Program-made: the position numbers and the translations under genes
In this document: positions 13,179-32,000 of the stretch, in pieces
How the letters are laid out: every line of letters starts with the position of its first letter
Numbering within the stretch: position 1 is the stretch's first letter
The notes under the pieces: model-generated
What the model saw: only the letters and a program-made list of their open reading frames with translations
Databases searched by the model: none
What the model was told of the DNA's origin: nothing
Assembly: GCA_942493095.1 (NCBI GenBank)
Contig: OW818675.1
Coordinates: 2,880,001 to 2,912,000, forward strand
Source of the DNA: Candidatus Electronema halotolerans
Lineage (GTDB): Bacteria > Desulfobacterota > Desulfobulbia > Desulfobulbales > Desulfobulbaceae
DNA: 32,000 nt
Reading direction: 5' to 3'

Positions 13179-14627
13179 ATGAAAGGAAAACGCTACGCAA
13201 TCCTCATAGCTGCCAGCAAGTTCCCGGAAGAGCCGGGCCTGACTGAGCTGCGCTGCCCGGAGAACGACGTTGACGCGCTCCACGAGCTGCTGATCTCGCC
13301 GAACTGCGGCTTGTTTGACAAGAAGAATACTCTTGTCCTCAAGAACGCGCCAAGCCATGAGGTGCTGTATAAGATTGAGACCGTCTTGAATGACGCTGGC
13401 AGTGAGGACTTGGTGCTCATCTATTTTTCCGGGCATGGCAAGTTAAATGCTGCGGGGCGGCTTTGTCTGGCAACTGTGAACACCAAGCTGAGGGCACTCG
13501 GCTCGACCTCCATTGCAGCAGAGCAGATCAAGCGTTTCTTTGACACTGCCAGCACAAGGAAGAGGATTCTCATTCTTGACTGCTGCTACAGCGGCGCGGC
13601 AGGGGCGGAGTTTGTCAAAGGCGGGGTGGATGACCAGCTCCAGCTCATGTCCGGCGGGCAAGGCACCTTCATCATGACTGCTTCGACGGCGTTTCAGACA
13701 GCGGTGGAAAAGGAGGGCGACTCGAACGGCCTGTTCACCAAGCATTTGCTGGAGGGCATCCGCAGCGGCGAGGCGGACAGGGATGATGACGACCTCATTT
13801 CGGTGGATGATCTGTATGAATACGTCCATGAGAAAGTCCAGGCTGAAGGCGCGCAGGTGCCGATGAAATGGGGCCTTCAGGCCAAAGGCAAGATGATCAT
13901 TGCCAAGAGCGGCAGGGATGCGAAATGGCGGCAGGAGATGGAACGGAGTCTGCATCGCTTTGCCGCAGACGGCCTGTTGACCAGCCGCGTTGTCCATGAG
14001 GCAATACAAGTTCTGCGTATGCCGAAAAAGAAGCTGGTCGGCAGAGAACAGCAGCGCATTGTCCTGATTGAGCAAGTTATATGCAGCAGGCTCGGCATGG
14101 CTGATTTCATGGAGCAGTGGATGGACTTGCGCTGCCTTGACTGTGCCGCAGCGGCAGCGGCGCAGAGAAGCAGAACCATCGGGCGATACATTGATCATGG
14201 CGATGGCACGATCACGGACACTGAAACCGGCTTGATGTGGAAACGCTGTTTGGAAGGCTTGTCCGGCGTGAATTGTGAAGAGGGAGAGGTGAAAAGATAT
14301 AAACATGATGAGGCGGTGAAGCGTTTCAAAAATGTTGAATATGCAGGATATTCTGATTGGCGGCTGCCGACCATTGATGAACTGAAGACCTTGGTTCATT
14401 GCAGCAAGGGGAAAAACAAAGATGGCTACTGCAACGAGGGATCAAAAACACCGACGATCAATCAGCAGGCTTTTCCGAATGCTGAGGCAGAATACTTTGT
14501 CTGGTCCGGTTCGCCCTATGCGCCCAACTCGGACTATGCGTGGGGCGTCAGTTTCCTCAGCGGCGATTCCTACTACGGCGGCCGCTTCAGCTTCCTCGCG
14601 GTCCGGTTGGTGCGCGGCGGACAGTGA
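13179..14627 (+). CDS. Caspase-family (peptidase C14) protein fused to a C-terminal DUF1566 / Lcl-C-terminal-like domain
   Basis: 482 aa. The N-terminal caspase fold has KRYAILIAASKF, catalytic His in LIYFSGHGKL and catalytic Cys in ILILDCCYSGAAG. A helical linker spans roughly residues 245-335. The C-terminal ~145 aa carry DUF1566 hallmarks (TITDTETGLMWKRC, GYSDWRLPTIDELKTL, YFVWSGSPY, AWGVSF). Confidence 0.88.
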   Translation: MKGKRYAILIAASKFPEEPGLTELRCPENDVDALHELLISPNCGLFDKKNTLVLKNAPSHEVLYKIETVLNDAGSEDLVLIYFSGHGKLNAAGRLCLATVNTKLRALGSTSIAAEQIKRFFDTASTRKRILILDCCYSGAAGAEFVKGGVDDQLQLMSGGQGTFIMTASTAFQTAVEKEGDSNGLFTKHLLEGIRSGEADRDDDDLISVDDLYEYVHEKVQAEGAQVPMKWGLQAKGKMIIAKSGRDAKWRQEMERSLHRFAADGLLTSRVVHEAIQVLRMPKKKLVGREQQRIVLIEQVICSRLGMADFMEQWMDLRCLDCAAAAAAQRSRTIGRYIDHGDGTITDTETGLMWKRCLEGLSGVNCEEGEVKRYKHDEAVKRFKNVEYAGYSDWRLPTIDELKTLVHCSKGKNKDGYCNEGSKTPTINQQAFPNAEAEYFVWSGSPYAPNSDYAWGVSFLSGDSYYGGRFSFLAVRLVRGGQ

Positions 14628-23090: not shown

Positions 23091-23538
23091 ATTGCGGCTG
23101 ACAGGTGCCTGTGCATTCCGCACCGTTTTCACAGCCGTCGTTGGGAATGTCAACGCATATCATTCCGTTTGGACAGGGAATGCCAGCGATGCTGCCGCAC
23201 ATCCGGCCTTGACCTTCGCATTGGCCGTCATATTTGACGGAAACACCAGCCCGGGCCGCAGCGCAGGCGTTGCTGTAGGTCCTGCCATTGCATCCGCAGA
23301 CCGGCGAATAGTCTGCGGTGCAGATTTCCGGCCTTGGCTTGCAGATGCCCGGCGCATCTCCAATGCCGCAATGGGCAGCGGGTTCATAAGAGCAATACAT
23401 ATCTGCCGGGCAGGCTGCACCGCGAAAGCCGCCGCAGACTTGGCCGGAAGGAGGAGGCGGGGAAGAAGGCGGCTTGGGGCATCCTGTCAGGAGCAGCAGG
23501 ACAAAGCAGCTGAGAGCAAAAAAAATGGACTTGCACAT
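23089..23538 (-). CDS. Cys-rich lipoprotein with a Kazal-type serine protease inhibitor domain
   Basis: The ATG at 23538 follows SD GGAGAG. Signal peptide with lipobox LLLTGC. The Kazal signature CTADYSPVCGCNGRTYSNACAAARAGVSVKYDGQC is flanked by further Cys-rich modules. Confidence 0.7.
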   Translation of the reverse strand: MCKSIFFALSCFVLLLLTGCPKPPSSPPPPSGQVCGGFRGAACPADMYCSYEPAAHCGIGDAPGICKPRPEICTADYSPVCGCNGRTYSNACAAARAGVSVKYDGQCEGQGRMCGSIAGIPCPNGMICVDIPNDGCENGAECTGTCQPQ

Positions 23539-24008
23539 GAATCTCTCCGCAAAAGAAACGGTTGCGCTGACATCAGCAGCATCTATTCTGCAAACCTGCC
23601 TCTGACAGCTTGGCTGTTGCCTCAGATTAAGCATTTTCGCCCCTGTCCAGCAAGGAATTTCTGCGGCAACAAACACCGCCCGCCGCTGCCGATCTTCAGA
23701 GATCATCCTGCCTCACTGTAGTCCATCTCGCAAAAAAGTCTCAACAATCCCGATTGCTTGGTCGGTCATACTGACCTGACATCCTGTTCCACAGGGAATA
23801 AAGCACTTGCACAGACCAGCACTGCTCCTATACAATAGGATTTCTTGTGCATAGTGTCTCTGTGCCATGAGCAGAAAGCTGCCTCCATGATTCTGGCTGT
23901 TTGGACTGCGCTTGTCAAAACGCTGCGCAGATGCGGCAGTGATACATCAAGAGTCAAGTGCTTGCCGCATACTCGGCTTGTCCTGAATGAATACAACTGA
24001 ATTTTTTT

Positions 24009-25049: not shown

Positions 25050-25637
25050 ATGTCGATCAATCTCTCCAAAGGCGCCAATATCTCATTGGCAAAAGAAGCT
25101 CCCAGCCTCACCGATGCCCTGCTGGGGCTGGGCTGGAGCAAGAGAAAAGAAAAAGCGTTCTTTGGCATGACGACCAAAGAAGTTGATGTTGATCTGGATG
25201 CCTCCTGCCTCCTGTTTGATGAAAATAAAAGCCTGCTGGATGCGGTCTGGTTCCGGCAGCTGCAAAGCAAGGACGGCTCAGTCCGGCACAGCGGTGACGA
25301 CCTGACCGGCGGGGGCGGGGATGACGATCCGAATGAGGAAATTCTTGTCCAGCTCAACGCGGTGCCGGACAATGTCAAAACCTTAGTTTTCACAGTCAAC
25401 AGTTTTCTCAATGATTCCTTTGACGGCATTCCCAGTGCCTTCTGCACCTTGAAGGATAAAAAAACTGGGAAAATCATTGCCAAGTACGACTTGAGCGTCG
25501 AAGGCGGCAGCCGCACCGGGCTGGTCATCGCCAAGCTCTACCGGCATGACAACGAGTGGAAATTCAAAGCCCTTGGCGAATGGGGCAACGGCAGAACCTT
25601 TGACAAGCTGCTGCCGATCATTTCTAAATTGCTGTAA
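25050..25637 (+). CDS. terD: TerD-family stress protein (TerD/TerZ-like), copy 1
   Basis: 195 aa with INLSKGANISL, LGLGW, DLDASCLLFD and the Ca-binding-type GDDLTGGGGDDDPNEEI. SD AAGGAG. Confidence 0.9.
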   Translation: MSINLSKGANISLAKEAPSLTDALLGLGWSKRKEKAFFGMTTKEVDVDLDASCLLFDENKSLLDAVWFRQLQSKDGSVRHSGDDLTGGGGDDDPNEEILVQLNAVPDNVKTLVFTVNSFLNDSFDGIPSAFCTLKDKKTGKIIAKYDLSVEGGSRTGLVIAKLYRHDNEWKFKALGEWGNGRTFDKLLPIISKLL

Positions 25638-25658
25638 CGCACCAAAGGAGGCAAAAAA

Positions 25659-26246
25659 ATGGGCATTACCTTAGAAAAAGGCGGCAGGATATCTCTGTCA
25701 AAAGCGGCACCTGGCCTGAGCAAGATTTTCATCGGTCTTGGCTGGGATGAGCGGACCACTGATGGTGCTGATTTTGATCTTGATGCCTCGGTTTTTCTCT
25801 TAAATGCGGCAGGCAAGGCCCGCAGCGAGCAGGATTTCATCTTCTACAACAACCTCAAGGGCGCGGACGGCGCAGTTGAGCATCAAGGCGACAACTTGAC
25901 CGGTGGCGGCGAGGGTGACGACGAGGTCGTCAAGGTTGATCTGCGCAAATTGGAAAGCGTCGCCCCGGATGTGATCAGAATGGCTGTGGTCTGCACGATT
26001 TACGAGGCGGAACAGCGCGGCCAGAATTTTGGTCAGGTCAGCAATGCCTTTATCCGCATTGTCAATGACGACGACAACGAGGAGATCGTCCGCTTTGATC
26101 TGACTGAAGATTATTCCATGGAAACGGCAATGGTCTTTGGCGAGGTCTATAAAAAAGACGGCGAATGGCGTTTCACTGCGGTCGGACAAGGCTATTCAGG
26201 AGGGCTTGCCGCTGCCTGCGCCAACTACGGCCTGAACGCCAACTGA
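25659..26246 (+). CDS. terD: TerD-family stress protein, copy 2
   Basis: 195 aa with ITLEKGGRISL, IGLGWD, DFDLDASVFLL, GDNLTGGGEGDDEVVKVDL and GEWRFTAVGQGY. SD AAAGGAGG. Confidence 0.92.
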   Translation: MGITLEKGGRISLSKAAPGLSKIFIGLGWDERTTDGADFDLDASVFLLNAAGKARSEQDFIFYNNLKGADGAVEHQGDNLTGGGEGDDEVVKVDLRKLESVAPDVIRMAVVCTIYEAEQRGQNFGQVSNAFIRIVNDDDNEEIVRFDLTEDYSMETAMVFGEVYKKDGEWRFTAVGQGYSGGLAAACANYGLNAN

Positions 26247-26270
26247 GGCGCAAACATCTGCCAATTTCGG

Positions 26271-26300
26271 AATGCCGCCTGCAACCGGGCGGCATTTTTT
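26271..26300 (+). terminator. Rho-independent terminator or attenuator between terD and terY
   Basis: 9-bp stem AATGCCGCC (26271-79) / GGCGGCATT (26288-96) with an 8-nt loop, running into a T6 tract (26295-26300). Confidence 0.6.
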
Positions 26301-26322
26301 GATATTTCTACAGGAGAATGCG

Positions 26323-26961
26323 ATGCGACGGCTGCCTGTCTATCTTCTGCTTGACTGCTCCACTTCCATGAGCGGCGAGCCGATTCAAGCGGTGCAAGAT
26401 GGCGTGCAACTGCTGATTTCAACCCTGCGGCAAGACCCTTACGCGCTGGAAACAGCCTGTCTCAGCGTGATCGCCTTTGACACAGATGCCAGACAGCTTG
26501 TGCCGCTGACTGATGTGATCAGCTTTCAAGTCCCAAATATTCGGGCGCAGGGGGTCACATCTTTAGGCAGGGCGTTGCAGCTAACTGCGGAAAAAATCAA
26601 CAGCGAAGTGGTGAAAACCACGCCTGACCGGCGCGGCGACTGGAAGCCGCTGGTTTTTCTCATGACCGACGGCATGCCCACGGACGACTGGCGGCCTGGC
26701 TTGGACCTGCTGCAAAAGAGCAAGCCCGGCATGATCATTGCCTGCGCTGCCGGACCTGATGTGGAACTCAAGGTTCTGAAGGAAATCTCAGACGTTGTTG
26801 TGCAGTTGAGCACGGCTGACGCTGAAACCATCAAGAAGTTCTTCCAGTGGATTTCCGCCAGCGTCAGCACCAGCAGCCGCAAGATTGATCTGAAAAAGAA
26901 AGATGTTACCGCCTTGGACGAGCTGCCGCCCCCGCCGCCGGAAATCAATGTCGTGGTCTGA
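26323..26961 (+). CDS. terY: TerY-like vWA domain protein, paralogue 3
   Basis: The ATG at 26323 follows SD CAGGAGA. MRRLPVYLLLDCSTSMSGEPIQ (MIDAS), SVIAFD, RRGDWKPLVFLMTDGMPTDD and C-terminal LPPPPPEINVVV. Confidence 0.85.
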   Translation: MRRLPVYLLLDCSTSMSGEPIQAVQDGVQLLISTLRQDPYALETACLSVIAFDTDARQLVPLTDVISFQVPNIRAQGVTSLGRALQLTAEKINSEVVKTTPDRRGDWKPLVFLMTDGMPTDDWRPGLDLLQKSKPGMIIACAAGPDVELKVLKEISDVVVQLSTADAETIKKFFQWISASVSTSSRKIDLKKKDVTALDELPPPPPEINVVV

Positions 26962-27252
26962 TTTCAGTTCTTGAACAGTTTGCTTTCCAGCAAACAAGTC
27001 GATCAGCCCCGCTTGCCCCAACAGCTTTACATGACTGATGTTTTTTTAAGAATATCGTGTCAGGATGTCCTGATCAGGGAAACTTCAGGCTGACGGGCTG
27101 ATGCAAAGCTGGTTTGCTGAATTTCTTTCATTCCGCCCTTAAAGCGTTCAGTCATACGTCAAGTCGCCCTGAATCCTCTTTTGCAACGAACTGCGGTGCG
27201 GAGTTGCGCACCGGCTCTGGGGCTGCATGGCAGAGCTGGCGCGCTGCTGAGG

Positions 27253-27564
27253 TTATAAGGTGATGACAATTCTTGGCAACTCCAGCACAAATGGCGGCGG
27301 GGCCATGTAAGCTGGCGGCGGTGCTGGCGTGACCATATAGGGCGGCGGCGGCAGATAGACCACTGGCGCAGGCGGCGGTGGCGGCACAAAAACAGGCGGT
27401 GGTGGAGCTGGCGCGACCATATAGGGCGGCGGCGGCAGATAGACCATTGGCGCAGGCGGTGGCGGCGCAAAAGCGGGCGGCGGCGGCAGAAAAGCGTGAG
27501 ACGCTGTTGCCGAAGTAAAAAAGATCGCCGCGCTGAACAAAATGGAACAAGTCAGAGTTTTCAT
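27253..27564 (-). CDS. Secreted proline-rich repeat protein (103 aa; mature part more than 50% Pro)
   Basis: The ATG at 27564 follows SD GGGAGA. Signal peptide MKTLTCSILFSAAIFFTSATASHA. The mature sequence is FLPPPPAFAPPPPAPMVYLPPPPYMVAPAPPPPVFVPPPPPAPVVYLPPPPYMVTPAPPPAYMAPPPFVLELPRIVITL. Confidence 0.6.
   Translation of the reverse strand: MKTLTCSILFSAAIFFTSATASHAFLPPPPAFAPPPPAPMVYLPPPPYMVAPAPPPPVFVPPPPPAPVVYLPPPPYMVTPAPPPAYMAPPPFVLELPRIVITL
27289..27495. repeat. About 84-bp tandem repeat (about 2.5 copies) inside the proline-rich gene
   Basis: GACCATATAGGGCGGCGGCGGCAGATAGACCA[C/T]TGGCGCAGGCGG starts at 27331 and again at 27415, with 1 mismatch over the first 45 nt and then a 3-nt indel. 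A degenerate copy lies upstream. Confidence 0.7.
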
Positions 27565-27951
27565 TGCATTCTCCCAGATGAAGTGGTGTGGGCAGATCAG
27601 CCTTGCAGCGACTGCTCCGCTTATTTTATTATACCATGCTGCTGTCAGGCCTGCTATTCTTTCCGCCGCCGCTTGAAACGTGTCATTCATGACCTGCGAA
27701 ACCGGCCCAACCAAAAATTTCAAAAAGTTTCAGGCGTATTTGGAACATTTTGCGGAGCAGCATGTTGAGCGGCTTCCAAATCCATCCCAATCCGCAGAGC
27801 ACCAACCTGCAATGGAAATTGGATTATCCGAAGAAACATCGCTTGAATCTGTATTTAGATGCAACATTGACCTGACTGATCAAATACGCATTCCACTGAC
27901 CGAGTTTCATACGGAAGCACTGGATTTATCAATAATAACAGAGAGGGGAAA

Positions 27952-28731
27952 ATGCCTGCACCAGAAATACAGATTTCAAAAGACGGCCTGAGACTTTCTT
28001 ATCAGCGATATTTGGCAGACAGTGCTGCTGGTTTCTTGGTGATTCTAATCGTATTGCTTGCTCTGAACAAAGGTGTGCCGCTTCCTTTTTTGGGCCATTC
28101 ACTTGAGTCACTTACAACGTTATCAAAAGATACTAAGGTGTTTGTTTTTCTTATTACCTTCCTACTTGCTACACCGCTTGGTCTCACGATAAACGGACTG
28201 AGCTGGTTTTTTCTTGGCTGGTGCAAGCTGTATAGTATAGATATTTGGTTAAAATCTCCTGAAAAGTACTTTAATCCATTTTTTCCTACTAAAAAATCTT
28301 TTAGATACAAAAAACTTGTCACTTTTTTCTTCAATAATAATCAATTATCAGGAAAAATTTATGAAGTATCTGAACAATATCAAGATTACCTGAGCATATT
28401 CTTTAAAGACAGGATACGATTAGAACATGTGACAGGATTGTCCCAATTTGCAAGAAATGTTTCTTTTATTTCTGTATGTTATGTTTTTATTATTTTCTAT
28501 AAGTTGTCGTGGTGCCCAGAAACAACCTTAGTCACATCTCACCATTTCATATTGCTTGGTATATTAATCGCTATACTTGCAGCTATTCTCTACTCATTAT
28601 TAGAGAGCTTTCGGTGTTTGAAAATTCTGTCAACCATCCATCTTCTCTGTATTGCTCGTGGGATAACACATAACACGTCGGATGATCCTGAAAAACTAAT
28701 CAAAAAAATACATGCCGCCTATTTTGCGTGA
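27952..28731 (+). CDS. Orphan AT-rich integral membrane protein (about 4 TM helices), unknown function
   Basis: 259-aa ORF with SD GAGGGG. It has about four hydrophobic helices, starting near residues 26, 63, 168 and 197. The lines I counted are 23-42% G+C, against about 55-60% in the flanks. No family recognised. Confidence 0.6.
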   Translation: MPAPEIQISKDGLRLSYQRYLADSAAGFLVILIVLLALNKGVPLPFLGHSLESLTTLSKDTKVFVFLITFLLATPLGLTINGLSWFFLGWCKLYSIDIWLKSPEKYFNPFFPTKKSFRYKKLVTFFFNNNQLSGKIYEVSEQYQDYLSIFFKDRIRLEHVTGLSQFARNVSFISVCYVFIIFYKLSWCPETTLVTSHHFILLGILIAILAAILYSLLESFRCLKILSTIHLLCIARGITHNTSDDPEKLIKKIHAAYFA

Positions 28732-30047: not shown

Positions 30048-30638
30048 ATGGAGCGGATCGGGCTGTTCGGCGGCACCTTTGACCCAGTGCATTGCGGCCA
30101 TCTGGCGATTGCCGAGCAGGCTGCGGAAGAACTGCGGCTCGCCCAGATGCTCTTCATCCCGGCTCCTGATCCGCCTCATAAGCGAAAGACGACAGCGACT
30201 TACGGGCAGCGGGTCGCCATGCTGGAGCTGGCCTTGGCCGACCATGATCGCTTCAGCGTCTCCCTGCTGGAGTCTGAGCTGCCCAAACCTTCCTACACGG
30301 CTGACACCCTGCTGGAGCTGCGCAAGCGTCTGGCCGGGCAGTTTTATTTCCTCATTGGTGCGGATTCGTTGCTGGAGCTGCACCTCTGGAACCGCTTTCA
30401 GGATTTGCTCAAGCTGACCAAATTCATCGTCATTTCACGGCCCGGCATTCCGCTGCCAGCCATGCGGCAGGCGATGGAGCGGCTGCCCGGTAATTTTGTT
30501 CCGCTCGTCAACCGGCTGAAGGAGGATGTTTCATCCACTGCGATTCGGGCGCAGTTGCGGCTGGGCGAAAAAACAGAGCTATTGGATAGGCGGGTGGTAG
30601 GGTATATTGAGCGGGAGAGGTTGTATAAATCTGTCTGA
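30048..30638 (+). CDS. nadD: Nicotinate-nucleotide adenylyltransferase
   Basis: 196 aa with IGLFGGTFDPVHCGHL (HxGH nucleotidyltransferase motif) and the C-terminal SSTAIR motif. It lies 5 nt downstream of proA. Confidence 0.9.
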   Translation: MERIGLFGGTFDPVHCGHLAIAEQAAEELRLAQMLFIPAPDPPHKRKTTATYGQRVAMLELALADHDRFSVSLLESELPKPSYTADTLLELRKRLAGQFYFLIGADSLLELHLWNRFQDLLKLTKFIVISRPGIPLPAMRQAMERLPGNFVPLVNRLKEDVSSTAIRAQLRLGEKTELLDRRVVGYIERERLYKSV

Positions 30639-30665
30639 CAAAAAACAGTCATCTTAATGCAGTAG

Positions 30666-31859
30666 ATGGAGAATGAAAGAATAATGGGTAAAACTTTTAA
30701 AAACAGCGGCGGAGAACAGAACATCGCTCAAGGTGACTATGCTATCGGCAGACAGATAAACACCTTTGGTATCCCTCCAGAAATCTTTGAAAAGTATGCG
30801 ACGAAGCTCGCTGTTACAGAATCTGCTTTAAGCAGTTTCTTCAAAACATTAGGAATAAAACAGGTTTCCCTTGACGATATAGATGGCAAATTACGTGAAA
30901 TTGCAGCTAATCATAAAGAACTATTGCAAAAATTACAGAATAACGCAGCAGAGTTATCAAAAAAATCAGAAGGTGCAGATATGAGTTCAAATTTGATTTA
31001 TATTGAAATATCAATGAAAGATGCGGAGTTGTATCAGGAGGCGTATGAGATACTGCTCAACAAGCTCGTTGAATGGAATGAAATAGCTATCAATAATGGA
31101 GCATCTAAAGCTCCATATGAATATGAAGTAAAGCGATTGCCAATCATAGTTAATTTTTTTAAGAAAAAAATTGCGTCAGGGAGTTATTTTATCACTGATA
31201 GAGTTAGCGAAGAGACCTTGCGTCTCAAAAAATCAGCTCTTCTTTGTGCTGCACATCAACATGAACAGCAGCTCCTCGAAAAATCAAAGAATGGCTGGCC
31301 ACCAGCAGTGATAGAGGCGGCTAAGGAGAAATCCAGAAGATTCAAAGAGCTTGCCGATAAGATTAAATATGATCTTCCAGAAAATTTGGCAGATATTCTG
31401 CCAAGATCAAATGTAACCGTTAATGATCATCATATCCGAGGCAAGGACTGGGAATGGGATGCGTTTATCAGCCACGCATGGGAGGATAAGGAAAATTTTG
31501 TTGCATCACTTGCTGCTGCTTTAGAGGAACAGGGCTTGAAAATATGGTACGACGAGTCAGTACTTAAAGTTGGTGATAGCCTCAGACGCTCCATAGATAA
31601 TGGATTGTCAAAATCAAGATATGGGATTGTTGTGTTAAGTCATTCTTTTTTGAAAAAAGAGTGGCCACAAAAAGAACTTGATGGGATATTCGCAAAAGAG
31701 CGGAATGGGATAAAAGTGCTGCTGCCGATATGGCATAATATTTCTTCAGAAGATATTGAAAAATTTTCGCCTATGCTGGCTGATCGTCTGGCAGTTTCAT
31801 CCAGCAAAGGACTTCCTCATGTCGTTGAGCAATTGTTGAGTGCGATTCAGCAATCGTAA
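30666..31859 (+). CDS. TIR-domain protein with an unassigned ~250-aa helical N-terminal region
   Basis: The C-terminal ~140 aa read WDAFISHAWEDKENFVASLAAALEEQGLKIWYDESVLKVGDSL...YGIVVLSHSFLKKEWPQKELDG, a TIR fold with the conserved Glu. The gene is AT-rich (lines counted 33-47% G+C). An alternative start is the ATG at 30684 (MGKTFKN). Confidence 0.85.
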   Translation: MENERIMGKTFKNSGGEQNIAQGDYAIGRQINTFGIPPEIFEKYATKLAVTESALSSFFKTLGIKQVSLDDIDGKLREIAANHKELLQKLQNNAAELSKKSEGADMSSNLIYIEISMKDAELYQEAYEILLNKLVEWNEIAINNGASKAPYEYEVKRLPIIVNFFKKKIASGSYFITDRVSEETLRLKKSALLCAAHQHEQQLLEKSKNGWPPAVIEAAKEKSRRFKELADKIKYDLPENLADILPRSNVTVNDHHIRGKDWEWDAFISHAWEDKENFVASLAAALEEQGLKIWYDESVLKVGDSLRRSIDNGLSKSRYGIVVLSHSFLKKEWPQKELDGIFAKERNGIKVLLPIWHNISSEDIEKFSPMLADRLAVSSSKGLPHVVEQLLSAIQQS

Positions 31860-31861
31860 GA

Positions 31862-32000
31862 TTGATCGAGCGCGGCAATTTTTCGACTGCCGAAAAACGG
31901 CGGCAATACCGGCAACTCGTGGAAAAAGTCGCTAATGCCGCCGCCTTAAAGCAGGAATTTCAGCGAAAACTCAAAAACGTTGAACAGAGCCTTGCTGCGG
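31862..32000 (+). CDS. Partial ORF of unknown function, open to the window end (start unclear)
   Basis: The frame is open from TTG 31862 to the window end (LIERGNFSTAEKRRQYRQLVEKVANAAALKQEFQRKLKNVEQSLAA..). G+C returns to backbone level. There is no SD and no family is recognised. Confidence 0.25.
   Translation, partial: MIERGNFSTAEKRRQYRQLVEKVANAAALKQEFQRKLKNVEQSLAA

What the first reader, a model, noticed from the sequence alone, without database searches (positions are those of the whole stretch)
30640..31860. AT-rich single-gene insertion after nadD encoding an orphan TIR-domain protein with an unassigned N-terminal domain
The last ~140 aa of this 397-aa protein are a TIR domain. It includes the S..F....W...EL segment (SHSFLKKEWPQKELDG), whose Glu is catalytic in NAD-cleaving TIRs. 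The first ~250 aa are helical and Lys/Glu-rich, and I cannot place them in any family. The gene is far more AT-rich than its neighbours. It starts 28 nt after nadD, and backbone-like G+C resumes directly after its stop, which looks like horizontal insertion into the conserved proA-nadD array. No ThsA (SIR2/SLOG), STAND NTPase, cyclase or other known TIR-system partner is adjacent, so it fits no named TIR defence system I know. It is also notable, possibly by coincidence, that a likely NAD-consuming enzyme sits immediately downstream of an NAD-biosynthesis gene.
Basis: partly seen in the sequence, partly recalled or inferred. Interest (0 to 1): 0.7.

Follow-up and report, generated by a model that had tools for sequence, protein, structure and literature searches.

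The report
Solo TIR NAD-cleaving gene after nadD
A cable bacterium picked up a single foreign gene after nadD that encodes an apparently intact NAD-cleaving TIR enzyme of a well-studied bacterial type, joined to a widespread but unstudied helical domain, and it most likely serves as a one-protein anti-phage defence.

Summary
ORF 30666-31859 (+, 397 aa; likely true start M7 at 30684, 391 aa) has GC 0.39 against 0.57 background, starts 27 nt after nadD and ends in a TIR domain.

It is not an orphan. The TIR domain (residues 261-397) is about 50-60% identical to the solved PdTir, AbTir, BtTir and TcpB/BtpA NADase TIR domains, and every AbTir active-site residue I mapped is present (catalytic E337, W333, BB-loop GDSLR). 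PADLOC scores it as candidate PDC-S66, through the TIR domain and the stretch just before it.

The N-terminus has two parts:
- Residues 106-245 are a confidently modelled four-helix domain shared by the roughly 300-aa relatives that dominate the best hits. It has no Pfam, PADLOC, NCBIfam, PDB or BFVD match. It is also fused to KAP-NTPase and AbiL-like ATPase proteins.
- Residues 1-105 are a lineage-specific extension under purifying selection.

Relatives show that the 1.2-kb cassette replaced two small membrane genes. Window 31862-32000 is the 3' remnant of one of them. Three lineages share the same junction, so the insertion is old and maintained. No partner gene is linked, and the nadD adjacency looks incidental.

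Verdict: a new variant of a known kind (single-protein TIR NADase defence, as in SpbK). Function is inferred, not shown. Interest is moderate.

The parts
30048..30638 (+). nadD (nicotinate-nucleotide adenylyltransferase). Native gene that forms the left border of the inserted cassette.
   Evidence: Pfam CTP_transf_like E 1e-27. GC 0.589, GC3 0.716. 73-86% identical to NadD of L003-L005. DNA homology to relatives ends at about 30616-30629.
30630..31861 (+). AT-rich inserted cassette of about 1.23 kb carrying one gene. The left edge is approximate; the right edge is exact.
   Evidence: blastn against the nadD loci of relatives: homology ends at about 30629 and resumes at 31863. The same right junction is found in L083 and L085. 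GC 0.388. No flanking direct or inverted repeats, and no promoter or terminator excess.
30666..31859 (+). TIR-protein ORF, 397 aa from M1. Probable true start M7 at 30684 (391 aa).
   Evidence: P0001 is 391 aa, 100% identical, annotated 'hypothetical protein GCAAIG_13010, Candidatus Electronema halotolerans'. The orthologues' starts align with M7.
30666..30980 (+). N-terminal extension, residues 1-105. Lineage-specific; three predicted helices (21-33, 38-61, 69-103).
   Evidence: Found only in the close orthologues P0002/L085 and L083. dN/dS 0.13-0.24 with dS above 1, so it is coding. AF2 pLDDT about 63-86 over the helices. No Pfam or PADLOC hit.
30981..31400 (+). Conserved family N-domain, residues 106-245. 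Four long helices plus a two-stranded beta hairpin. No known relatives.
   Evidence: Nearly all of the 120 best hits align from about residue 106-125 onward. AF2 on the domain alone gives pLDDT 91.4 and pTM 0.85. Foldseek best E is 0.8 against PDB and 0.23 against BFVD. A profile search of PDB sequences gives best E 0.05. 15 of 18 near-invariant family residues are kept. dN/dS 0.31-0.38.
31401..31445 (+). Flexible linker, residues 246-260.
   Evidence: AF2 pLDDT below 50 for residues 248-259.
31446..31856 (+). TIR domain, residues 261-397, of the PdTir/AbTir/BtTir/TcpB type.
   Evidence: phmmer against PDB: 3H16 E 3.7e-43, 7UWG 1.1e-41, 7UXR 1.1e-40, 4LZP 6.9e-40. Foldseek target-normalised TM 0.84-0.90 at 50-54% identity. 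Pfam TIR_2 and TIR. dN/dS 0.10-0.12.
31674..31676 (+). Codon of E337, the predicted catalytic glutamate, in the motif K331-E-W333-P-Q-K-E337-L-D-G.
   Evidence: Aligns with AbTir E208. AbTir residue number plus 129 gives the residue here. K202, W204, G174-D-S-L-R178 and W227 correspond to K331, W333, G303-R307 and W356. These columns are invariant or nearly so in 79 family members.
31862..32000 (+). 3' remnant (about the last 50 codons) of a resident 149-aa membrane-protein gene that the insertion truncated. It runs off the window.
   Evidence: It translates to LIERGNFSTAEKRRQYRQLVEKVANAAALKQEFQRKLKNVEQSLAA. This matches the C-terminus of the intact 148-149-aa ORFs in L003 and L004, with 84-88% DNA identity. 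The copy in L085 carries a 5-nt insertion that shifts the frame.

Best explanation
What it is: a stand-alone cytoplasmic TIR-domain NAD+ glycohydrolase. Its catalytic domain belongs to the PdTir/AbTir/BtTir/TcpB clade. An ancestor of a sub-lineage of Candidatus Electronema acquired it horizontally at a variable spot just 3' of nadD, where it replaced two small membrane-protein genes. It has been kept under purifying selection since.

Proposed mechanism, all of it inferred:
1. In the resting cell the protein is inactive. TIR NADases need two TIR domains packed head to tail (the BE interface) to form an active site.
2. The conserved four-helix N-domain, together with the lineage-specific N-terminal extension, binds a trigger, most likely a phage protein or assembly. 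Alternatively it releases autoinhibition.
3. TIR domains are brought together and cleave NAD+ at E337 into nicotinamide plus ADP-ribose and/or a cyclic ADPR isomer. W333, the tryptophan needed for cyclisation in AbTir, is present, so 2'cADPR is plausible.
4. With no linked effector gene, NAD+ depletion and growth arrest of the infected cell (abortive infection, as for B. subtilis SpbK) is the most likely output.

Shown here: sequence, fold, intact catalytic residues, acquisition history, selection, absence of a linked partner, and the defence-type company of the family and of its N-domain.
For: - TIR identity: E 1e-38 to 4e-43 to seven solved PdTir, AbTir, BtTir and TcpB chains. Foldseek target-normalised TM 0.84-0.90 at 50-54% identity.
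- Active site: every AbTir residue that mutagenesis or the cryo-EM structure showed to matter, and that I mapped, is present: G303, S305, L306, D311, K331, W333, E337, W356. The alphaC motif KKEWPQKELDG is identical to that of PdTir.
- Activity of relatives: PdTir, AbTir and BtpA hydrolyse NAD+ in vivo and in vitro, dependent on this Glu (PMC10937652). AbTir E208A is dead, and W204A loses most cyclisation (bioRxiv 10.1101/2022.05.07.491051).
- Architecture: the AF2 model shows separate modules joined by a disordered linker. This is the layout of SpbK, an N-terminal 4-helix bundle, linker and TIR, which a phage portal protein activates through the N-domain (PMC12847820).
- Defence signal: PADLOC PDC-S66 E 3.6e-63, ThsB1 1.9e-38, retron RT-TIR 8e-13.
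- Family contexts: variable regions with integrases or transposases, AbiE, HicB, Phd/PIN, SIR2_2 proteins or a second TIR gene, and no recurring partner.
- N-domain fusions: the same N-domain heads a QatA/PifA-like KAP NTPase (P0166) and an AbiLi/PDC-M38A-like ATPase (P0159), hhalign probability 99.9%.
- Acquisition: GC3 0.34 against 0.72-0.76 in the flanks.
- Maintenance: dN/dS is 0.10-0.38 in all three segments. dS of the TIR gene (0.51-0.81) is similar to nadD (0.58-0.61).
- Location in the cell: no hydrophobic segment (maximum 19-residue hydropathy 0.85), so it is cytoplasmic.
Against: - No enzymatic or phage data exist for this protein or for any member of its N-domain family. PDC-S66 is only a candidate, and its model matches here only over profile positions 90-280 of 282 (the TIR domain plus about 65 preceding residues).
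- Several family loci sit among housekeeping genes (L091, L172, L173), as this one does, so enrichment in defence islands is anecdotal (nine loci).
- The role of the N-domain as sensor is an analogy. It could instead be an oligomerisation or autoinhibitory module.
- The product (ADPR, 2'cADPR or 3'cADPR) cannot be read from sequence.
- An unlinked receptor elsewhere in the 3.2-Mb genome could not be looked for, because the genome is not in the collections I could scan.
- DNA beyond 32000 in this genome was not seen.
- The gene has stayed AT-rich over dS of about 0.5-0.8. I cannot explain this.
Confidence: 0.55

Rival explanations
1. Signal generator working in trans. Like a Thoeris ThsB, the protein makes a cyclic ADPR isomer (2'cADPR or 3'cADPR) on infection, and that signal activates an effector encoded elsewhere in the genome. 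NAD+ depletion is not itself the output.
For: - PADLOC ThsB1 models hit at E 1.9e-38.
- AbTir, BtTir and TcpB, the nearest solved relatives, make mainly 2'cADPR, and the cyclisation tryptophan (W333) is kept.
- Two of the nine family loci have large SIR2_2 proteins within about 4 kb, and one has a tandem second TIR gene.
Against: - The cassette holds one gene, and the flanks are nadD and a gene remnant.
- No ThsA/SLOG/Macro-type hit among 31 other window ORFs.
- No partner recurs across nine family loci.
- The nearby SIR2_2 proteins are 866-1264 aa, carry no other Pfam domain on record, lie on either strand and are several genes away.
Confidence: 0.17
2. Housekeeping or regulatory NAD enzyme. 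The protein trims NAD pools or removes NAD caps from RNA (deNAMing), and is expressed from the proA-nadD transcript so that NAD consumption is coupled to NAD synthesis.
For: - PdTir, AbTir and BtpA decap NAD-RNA in vitro, dependent on the Glu (PMC10937652).
- The gene lies 27-45 nt after nadD on the same strand, with no promoter-like or terminator-like site in between. The three orthologues keep the same position and orientation.
Against: - Foreign composition (GC3 0.34).
- Absent from the closest nadD loci L003-L005.
- In L083/L084 a Phd/PIN pair sits between nadD and the TIR gene.
- The nadD link comes from one ancestral event and is absent from eight other family loci.
- The N-domain is shared with defence-type ATPases.
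- Patchy distribution is not what a housekeeping function predicts.
Confidence: 0.1
3. Selfish toxin or addiction-type element, or a decaying passenger gene with no current benefit to the cell.
For: - A TIR NADase is potentially toxic.
- Toxin-antitoxin genes are frequent neighbours of the family: Phd/PIN in L083, HicB in L172, AbiE in L174 and L175.
- One locus (L175) keeps only the N-domain (153 aa), which may reflect loss of the TIR part.
Against: - No antitoxin-like gene lies inside the cassette.
- Purifying selection acts on all three segments over dS 0.5-0.8, and the reading frame is intact in three lineages.
- No mobility genes or terminal repeats.
Confidence: 0.08
4. Host-directed Tcp-type virulence factor that interferes with eukaryotic Toll-like receptor signalling, the role first proposed for TcpB/BtpA, TcpC and PdTLP.
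For: The TIR domain is closest to PdTir and TcpB/BtpA.
Against: - The organism is a free-living sediment cable bacterium.
- No signal peptide or hydrophobic segment, and no secretion genes nearby.
- The N-domain is unlike the Ala-rich, basic, Trp-free N-terminal region of PdTLP (PMC7646307).
Confidence: 0.02

Closest known systems
PdTir/PdTLP (Paracoccus denitrificans, PDB 3H16), AbTir (Acinetobacter baumannii, 7UWG/7UXU/8G83), BtTir (7UXR) and TcpB/BtpA (Brucella, 4C7M/4LQC/4LZP): bacterial TIR NADases
   Same: - The TIR domain is about 50-60% identical and superposes at target-normalised TM 0.84-0.90.
- Same catalytic Glu, cyclisation Trp, BB-loop G-D-S-L-R and adenine-stacking Trp.
- Same overall layout: an N-terminal helical region followed by a C-terminal TIR domain in a protein of about 270-300 aa.
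   Different: - The N-terminal region is not the same. Residues 1-256 here match no PADLOC, Pfam or PDB entry.
- The PdTLP N-terminal region is Ala-rich, has pI 10 and lacks Trp, whereas this family's N-domain has two near-invariant Trp.
- This protein adds a further lineage-specific extension of 105 aa.
- Activity and product are untested here.
SpbK (Bacillus subtilis): single-gene TIR abortive-infection protein
   Same: An N-terminal 4-helix bundle, a flexible linker and a C-terminal TIR NADase, encoded as a lone gene. In SpbK the N-domain docks on the phage portal, and the resulting clustering switches on the NADase (PMC12847820). This is the working model I adopt.
   Different: - No detectable sequence relationship. 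SpbK is not among the PDB sequence hits at E <= 0.01.
- The N-domain here is larger (about 140 aa, with a beta hairpin) and has no solved counterpart.
- The trigger is unknown.
PADLOC candidate PDC-S66 (single-gene phage-defence candidate)
   Same: Best PADLOC hit, E 3.6e-63 and 212 bits. Other family members score alike.
   Different: - The match covers only profile positions 90-280 of 282, that is the TIR domain plus about 65 preceding residues. Residues 1-256 alone hit nothing.
- PDC-S66 is a computational candidate. I found only two papers that mention it, both in passing.
Thoeris ThsB (TIR signal generator paired with ThsA)
   Same: A TIR NADase domain. ThsB1 HMM hits at E 1.9e-38 and 3.6e-19.
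   Different: No ThsA or other effector gene is adjacent or anywhere in the window. According to the AbTir study, AbTir-type TIR domains are structurally less similar to BcThsB than to each other.
Other architectures built on the same TIR subtype (DUF1883-TIR on enterobacterial plasmids, retron RT-TIR type XII, prophage TIR proteins)
   Same: - The TIR domain is 39-64% identical.
- Retron-TIR models hit at E 8e-13 in PADLOC and 3e-26 in NCBIfam.
   Different: Different partner domains. Of 80 metagenome loci carrying this TIR subtype, only 2 have the N-domain of this family.

Membership tests
AbTir/PdTir/BtTir/TcpB-type bacterial TIR NADase domain | TIR (flavodoxin-like) fold with close sequence similarity to the solved members | tested here: met
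   phmmer E 1e-38 to 4e-43 against 3H16, 7UWG, 8G83, 7UXR, 4LZP, 4LQC and 4C7M. Foldseek target-normalised TM 0.84-0.90 at 50-54% identity. Pfam TIR_2 E 4e-20.
AbTir/PdTir/BtTir/TcpB-type bacterial TIR NADase domain | Catalytic Glu on helix alphaC, with the W-x-x-x-E tryptophan and an intact BB loop | tested here: met
   E337, W333, K331 and G303-D-S-L-R307 align with AbTir E208, W204, K202 and G174-R178. They are invariant or nearly invariant in the family alignment.
AbTir/PdTir/BtTir/TcpB-type bacterial TIR NADase domain | NAD+ glycohydrolase activity, with ADPR or 2'cADPR as product | not testable with these tools
   Needs the purified protein. Activity is documented for PdTir, AbTir, BtTir and BtpA.
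AbTir/PdTLP-type full-length protein (coiled-coil N-terminus plus TIR) | N-terminal region homologous to the coiled-coil N-terminal regions of AbTir or PdTLP | tested here: not met
   Residues 1-256 give no PADLOC hit, although PDC-S66 and ThsB models hit the TIR part. The published composition of the PdTLP N-terminal region (20.6% Ala, pI 10.15, no Trp) does not fit this N-domain, which has two near-invariant Trp.
Thoeris (ThsA + ThsB) | TIR gene adjacent to a ThsA effector (SIR2-SLOG, or TM-Macro in type II) | tested here: not met
   The neighbours are nadD upstream and a gene remnant downstream. The cassette holds one gene. No Thoeris model was hit by 31 other window ORFs. The orthologous loci L083-L085 have no such gene. 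DNA beyond 32000 in this genome was not seen.
PADLOC PDC-S66 | Full-length match to the PDC-S66 profile | tested here: inconclusive
   E 3.6e-63, but only profile positions 90-280 of 282 are matched. The N-terminal 256 residues alone score nothing.
The N-domain + TIR family of about 300 aa (unnamed) | Conserved N-domain of about 140 aa (motifs W-N..A...G-A...P-Y..E, R..K-A-A-L, G-W-P), followed by a linker and an AbTir-type TIR domain | tested here: met
   Nearly all of the 120 best hits align over about residues 106-397 at 40-48% identity. 15 of 18 near-invariant N-domain residues are kept. The domain is modelled at pLDDT 91.
SpbK-like single-gene TIR abortive infection | Lone gene; N-terminal helical sensor domain, linker and TIR NADase; activation by a phage protein | tested here: inconclusive
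   The architecture and lone-gene status are met. There is no sequence homology to SpbK. Activation by phage cannot be tested here.

The most novel reading that the evidence does not exclude
The roughly 140-aa four-helix N-domain would be a previously undescribed sensor or adaptor module of prokaryotic immunity. It is plugged interchangeably onto TIR NADases, QatA/PifA-like KAP NTPases and AbiL-like ATPases, and may recognise a conserved phage cue or small molecule. The N-domain + TIR proteins would then define a new, widespread single-protein defence family. The cable-bacterium version, with its extra lineage-specific N-terminal extension and stable position behind nadD, would be a variant in a multicellular filament, where death of single infected cells could protect the electrically coupled chain.
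Probability: 0.3. Interest if true: 0.6.

Novelty: new variant of a known kind. Interest (0 to 1): 0.4.

Why it matters
The catalytic half is ordinary: one more copy of a very mobile, well-studied TIR NADase domain.

Three things are worth keeping:
1. A clean natural record of gene turnover at a small hotspot behind nadD. Relatives show an empty site, a two-gene membrane module, the TIR gene plus a remnant, and a toxin-antitoxin pair plus the TIR gene plus the remnant.
2. A confidently folding N-terminal domain with dozens of sequence clusters and no entry in Pfam, NCBIfam, PADLOC, PDB or BFVD. It is shared between TIR, KAP-NTPase and AbiL-like ATPase proteins, which makes it a good candidate for a new sensor or adaptor module.
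3. A candidate single-protein immune gene in cable bacteria. These cannot be cultured, and I came across no work on their defence systems in the searches made here.

Tried and rejected
- Contig look-ups for this genome: these returned only 1.4-1.7-kb Logan contigs. The genome-contig scan with NadD did not contain the genome itself. DNA beyond 32000 therefore stayed unseen, and I relied on the relatives L083-L085.
- Foldseek with the full-length model: only TIR hits. I re-modelled the N-domain alone and found no significant match in PDB or BFVD.
- Profile of the N-domain against PDB sequences: best E 0.05, in helical regions of GBP1 and SecA. Rejected as noise.
- Pfam Snapin_Pallidin on residues 66-107, E 0.014-0.03, below the cut-off. 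Rejected as coiled-coil noise.
- Word-indexed homologue search with residues 1-110: nothing, not even the identical P0001. The same search with the N-domain profile gave only 3 proteins. The exhaustive phmmer run gave 58 clusters. Three of them (P0148, P0149, P0165) are long proteins matched only by several short repeated stretches; I discounted these as coiled-coil matches without testing them.
- Metagenome scan meant to collect family neighbourhoods: it retrieved the TIR subtype in many other architectures, and only 2 of 80 loci had the N-domain. It was no use for a partner census but showed how modular the TIR domain is.
- Plasmid and phage collections: no full-length family member.
- C-terminal extensions of longer family members (400-655 aa): no Pfam domain.
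- Mobile-element signatures at the cassette ends: none. Promoter and terminator scan: at chance level.
- The two displaced genes (ORF177/227 and ORF149 of L003/L004): no Pfam or PADLOC hit.
- M106 as the real start, as the gene caller chose for P0003 and P0004: considered and rejected as the sole start. The upstream 105 codons are conserved as protein, with dN/dS 0.13-0.24. An internal start with a GAAGGTG Shine-Dalgarno-like motif remains possible as a second product.
Full report
**1. The observation**

The window contains an ORF at 30666..31859 on the + strand (397 aa). nadD (Pfam CTP_transf_like, E 1e-27) stops at 30636-30638. The gap is therefore 27 nt to the first ATG, or 45 nt to the second ATG at 30684. 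The NCBI record starts at the second ATG (P0001, 391 aa, 'hypothetical protein GCAAIG_13010 [Candidatus Electronema halotolerans]'), and the orthologues' starts line up with it.

The organism is a cable bacterium of the Desulfobulbaceae.

| Region | GC | GC3 |
|---|---|---|
| TIR ORF | 0.389 | 0.342 |
| proA | 0.602 | 0.763 |
| nadD | 0.589 | 0.716 |

For windows of the same length, the background in the rest of the 32 kb is 0.566 +/- 0.033, which gives z = -5.4. Only one other stretch of the window is as AT-rich: the 259-aa membrane-protein gene at 27952-28731.

The C-terminal 137 residues are a TIR domain (Pfam TIR_2, E 4e-20).

**2. The TIR domain is not an orphan**

A sequence search of all PDB chains gives E 3.7e-43 to PdTir (3H16), 1e-41 to AbTir (7UWG, 8G83), 1e-40 to BtTir (7UXR) and 1e-38 to 7e-40 to TcpB/BtpA (4LZP, 4LQC, 4C7M). 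The alignments run gap-free over residues 261-394. The AlphaFold2 model (mean pLDDT 80.9) superposes on these structures with target-normalised TM 0.84-0.90 at 50-54% identity.

Using the AbTir numbering of the cyclic-ADPR study and the alignment, an AbTir residue number plus 129 gives the residue here.

| AbTir residue | Role | Here |
|---|---|---|
| E208 | catalytic | E337 |
| W204 | needed for cyclisation to 2'cADPR | W333 |
| K202 | binds the diphosphate | K331 |
| G174-D-S-L-R178 | BB loop | G303-R307 |
| D182 | interstrand interface | D311 |
| W227 | stacks on adenine | W356 |

All are present, and all are invariant or nearly invariant in 79 family members. The helix-C motif KKEWPQKELDG is identical to that of PdTir.

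PdTir, AbTir and BtpA hydrolyse NAD+ in cells and in vitro, and they also remove nicotinamide from NAD-capped RNA. Both activities depend on this glutamate (PMC10937652). The domain therefore carries everything known to be needed for NADase activity. The activity itself is inferred.

**3. The N-terminus has two parts**

BLAST of the 120 best database relatives shows that nearly all are proteins of about 300 aa that align with query residues ~106-397 at 40-48% identity. Only P0001 (the same protein) and P0002 (74%) cover residues 7-105.

*Residues 106-245.* On their own they fold with pLDDT 91.4 and pTM 0.85 into four long helices with a two-stranded hairpin. The near-invariant residues are W137-N138, G145-A146, P150-Y151, E154, R186, K189, W211-P212. 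From the helix order, most of them should lie at one end of the bundle; this is inference.

This domain has no match in any library searched:
- Pfam, NCBIfam and PADLOC;
- Foldseek against PDB (best E 0.8) and BFVD (best E 0.23);
- a profile search of PDB sequences (best E 0.05).

The published composition of the PdTLP N-terminal region (20.6% Ala, pI 10.15, no tryptophan; PMC7646307) does not fit this domain. So it shares only the TIR domain with PdTLP. The PADLOC hit to candidate PDC-S66 (E 3.6e-63) likewise covers only the TIR domain and the roughly 65 residues before it (profile positions 90-280 of 282).

*Residues 1-105.* These form three predicted helices of lower confidence. They have no relatives outside the close orthologues. 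They are clearly coding: dN/dS is 0.13-0.24 with dS above 1.

*Residues 248-259.* A disordered linker.

**4. How the gene got there**

The genome itself is not in the searchable genome collection, but three relatives' nadD loci are.

| Locus | What follows nadD |
|---|---|
| L003 (UBA5173), L004 (S01.Bin068) | An AT-rich 177- or 227-aa membrane ORF, then a 148-149-aa membrane ORF ending ...AMELIERGNFSP(I/A)EKRRQYRLLVEKVANAAALKQEFQRELKNIEKSLAAEGKT(S/P) |
| L005 (Electronema sp. KV) | murA, directly |
| Window | The TIR gene; the 139 nt after its stop translate to LIERGNFSTAEKRRQYRQLVEKVANAAALKQEFQRKLKNVEQSLAA |

DNA homology between the window and these relatives ends at about 30629 and resumes at 31863 with 84-88% identity. 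The cassette of about 1.23 kb therefore replaced the first ORF and roughly the first 100 codons of the second.

Three metagenomic contigs carry orthologues of the TIR gene:
- L083 and L084: 79% identity over the full length, and 82% over the part called as P0003.
- L085: 74% identity.

All three have the gene behind proA-nadD or nadD, with the same right-hand junction to the base. In L085 the remnant has acquired a 5-nt frameshifting insertion. In L083 and L084 a Phd/PIN toxin-antitoxin pair has been added between nadD and the TIR gene.

Synonymous divergence of the TIR gene (0.51 to L083, 0.81 to L085) is similar to that of nadD (0.58, 0.61). This fits one old insertion followed by vertical descent. 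The orthologues are as AT-rich as the window copy (GC3 0.35-0.37).

There are no terminal repeats, target duplications or mobility genes. Promoter- and terminator-like sites occur at chance level, so read-through from proA-nadD is plausible but not shown.

**5. Company kept by the family and by its N-domain**

Outside the Electronema group I examined eight N-domain + TIR loci, plus one N-domain-only locus (L175). No neighbour recurs.

| Locus | Neighbours |
|---|---|
| L086 | A second TIR gene in tandem; a 1264-aa SIR2_2 protein |
| L088 | Two integrases, an HTH gene immediately upstream, an 866-aa SIR2_2 protein, IS21 |
| L089, L090 | Transposases |
| L091 | YfbU and cobalamin genes |
| L172 | HicB |
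| L173 | Housekeeping genes |
| L174 | AbiEi/AbiEii and two integrases |
| L175 | A 153-aa N-domain-only protein next to AbiEi/AbiEii and Fic |

An exhaustive phmmer search with the N-domain alone found 58 clusters (at 50% identity) with E <= 0.001. Most that are long enough carry the TIR domain, but two do not:
- P0166 joins the N-domain to a KAP P-loop NTPase that hits the QatA, PifA and PDC-S20 models.
- P0159 joins it to an ATPase that matches PDC-M38A and AbiLi over their full length.

hhalign of the family profile against each of these two gives probability 99.9% (E about 1e-31) over about 150 N-domain columns.

Longer family members add unrelated C-terminal extensions of several kinds, none with a Pfam domain. 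Conversely, the same TIR subtype occurs in many other architectures. Of 80 metagenome loci carrying it, only two have this N-domain. On enterobacterial plasmids it is fused to DUF1883.

Within the window, 31 other ORFs give no Thoeris, SIR2/SLOG or other partner hit.

**6. Mechanism**

The best-supported reading is a one-protein TIR NADase that is silent until its TIR domains are brought together. Inactive symmetric dimers and active head-to-tail filaments have been described for AbTir and SpbK.

SpbK is the closest functional analogue. It has an N-terminal 4-helix bundle, a flexible linker and a TIR domain, it is encoded by a lone gene, and it is activated when its N-domain docks on the phage portal. 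By analogy, the N-domain, perhaps with the lineage-specific extension, would bind a trigger, and NAD+ depletion would arrest the infected cell.

I put 0.55 on this. The rivals are:
- in-trans cyclic-ADPR signalling to an unlinked effector, 0.17;
- a housekeeping NAD or NAD-RNA role coupled to nadD, 0.10;
- a selfish or decaying element, 0.08;
- a host-directed Tcp role, 0.02.

The remainder is unassigned. Only sequence, fold, residues, history, selection and context are shown here; activity, trigger and phenotype are inferred.

**7. Comparison, novelty and score**

At the domain level the protein is a member of the PdTir/AbTir/BtTir/TcpB TIR clade: fold and catalytic features were tested and met. 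At the whole-protein level it is not an AbTir/PdTLP-type protein, because the N-terminal region test was not met. It is not a Thoeris component, because no ThsA is present. Its relation to PDC-S66 is partial.

It works most like SpbK but is not homologous to it. I therefore rate it a new variant of a known kind.

What remains of interest is the uncharacterised, recurrent N-domain shared with two defence-type ATPase families, and the well-resolved replacement event at a small hotspot in a cable bacterium. Interest 0.4.

Noticed in passing
window 27952-28731 (+): A second strongly AT-rich gene (GC 0.358) sits just upstream of proA. It encodes a 259-aa multi-pass membrane protein with no Pfam, PADLOC or NCBIfam hit. 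A homologue (about 69% DNA identity) occupies the same place in L003 but not in L004. In L003 and L004 a further 443-455-aa membrane protein lies between this position and proA and is missing here. Both flanks of proA-nadD are therefore variable.
   Followed up: partly
L003 10664-11643; L004 10669-11795: In relatives the site now held by the TIR gene carries a two-gene module. The first gene is an AT-rich 177- or 227-aa membrane ORF with a variable N-terminus and a conserved C-terminus; the second is a 148-149-aa membrane ORF. Neither has any Pfam or PADLOC hit. The function is unknown; it may be another small accessory system that the TIR gene displaced.
   Followed up: partly
L083 7021-7747; L084 2306-2596: In the closest TIR-bearing relative a Phd/YefM antitoxin and a PIN-domain toxin are inserted between nadD and the TIR gene. 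The spot has accepted accessory genes more than once.
   Followed up: yes
P0166 (1289 aa) and P0159 (533 aa), from the representative search: The family's N-domain also heads a QatA/PifA-like KAP NTPase and an AbiLi/PDC-M38A-like ATPase (hhalign probability 99.9%). It is thus an uncharacterised module shared by three defence-type protein classes.
   Followed up: partly
L175 8001-8462; L174 7001-7933: A 153-aa protein consisting of the N-domain alone lies divergently next to AbiEi/AbiEii. A full N-domain + TIR protein occupies the same position in another contig. This could be loss of the TIR domain or a free-standing N-domain protein.
   Followed up: no
P0013, P0030, P0040/P0044/P0051, P0057, P0070/P0118/P0120: Family members of 400-655 aa carry at least four unrelated C-terminal extensions after the TIR domain, none with a Pfam domain. 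They may be variable sensor domains.
   Followed up: partly
L003 11675-12517: In relative L003 an ADP-ribosylglycohydrolase gene (PF03747, E 2e-48) directly follows the 149-aa ORF whose remnant follows the TIR gene here. Whether the window genome has it just beyond position 32000 could not be checked. An ADP_ribosyl_GH gene also lies about 8 kb from the TIR gene in L086.
   Followed up: no
window 25050-26961 (+): Two tandem TerD-domain genes (E 1e-45 and 1e-79) are followed by a vWA-domain gene. This looks like a stress- or conflict-associated cluster about 3.7 kb upstream of the TIR gene. No link to it was found.
   Followed up: no
window 13179-14624 (+): A 482-aa protein with an N-terminal caspase domain (Peptidase_C14, E 7e-16) and an Lcl C-terminal domain. 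A PADLOC 'caspase' model is hit at E 4e-10 by one of the window ORFs, presumably this one.
   Followed up: no
window 27150-27723 (-): A GC-skewed stretch encodes a 156-aa ORF with a repeated proline-rich motif (...VYLPPPPYMV(A/T)PAPPP...). It has no Pfam hit, and several ORFs overlap it on both strands, so the real gene is unclear.
   Followed up: no
window 23092-23706 (-): A 205-aa ORF with a Kazal-type serine-protease-inhibitor domain (E 3e-7), which is uncommon in bacteria. A 209-aa ORF overlaps it on the opposite strand.
   Followed up: no
TIR gene in the window, L083 and L085: The gene has stayed AT-rich (GC3 0.34-0.37) in hosts with GC3 0.70-0.79, although synonymous divergence between the copies is 0.5-0.8. 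It has not drifted toward host composition, and I have no explanation.
   Followed up: partly
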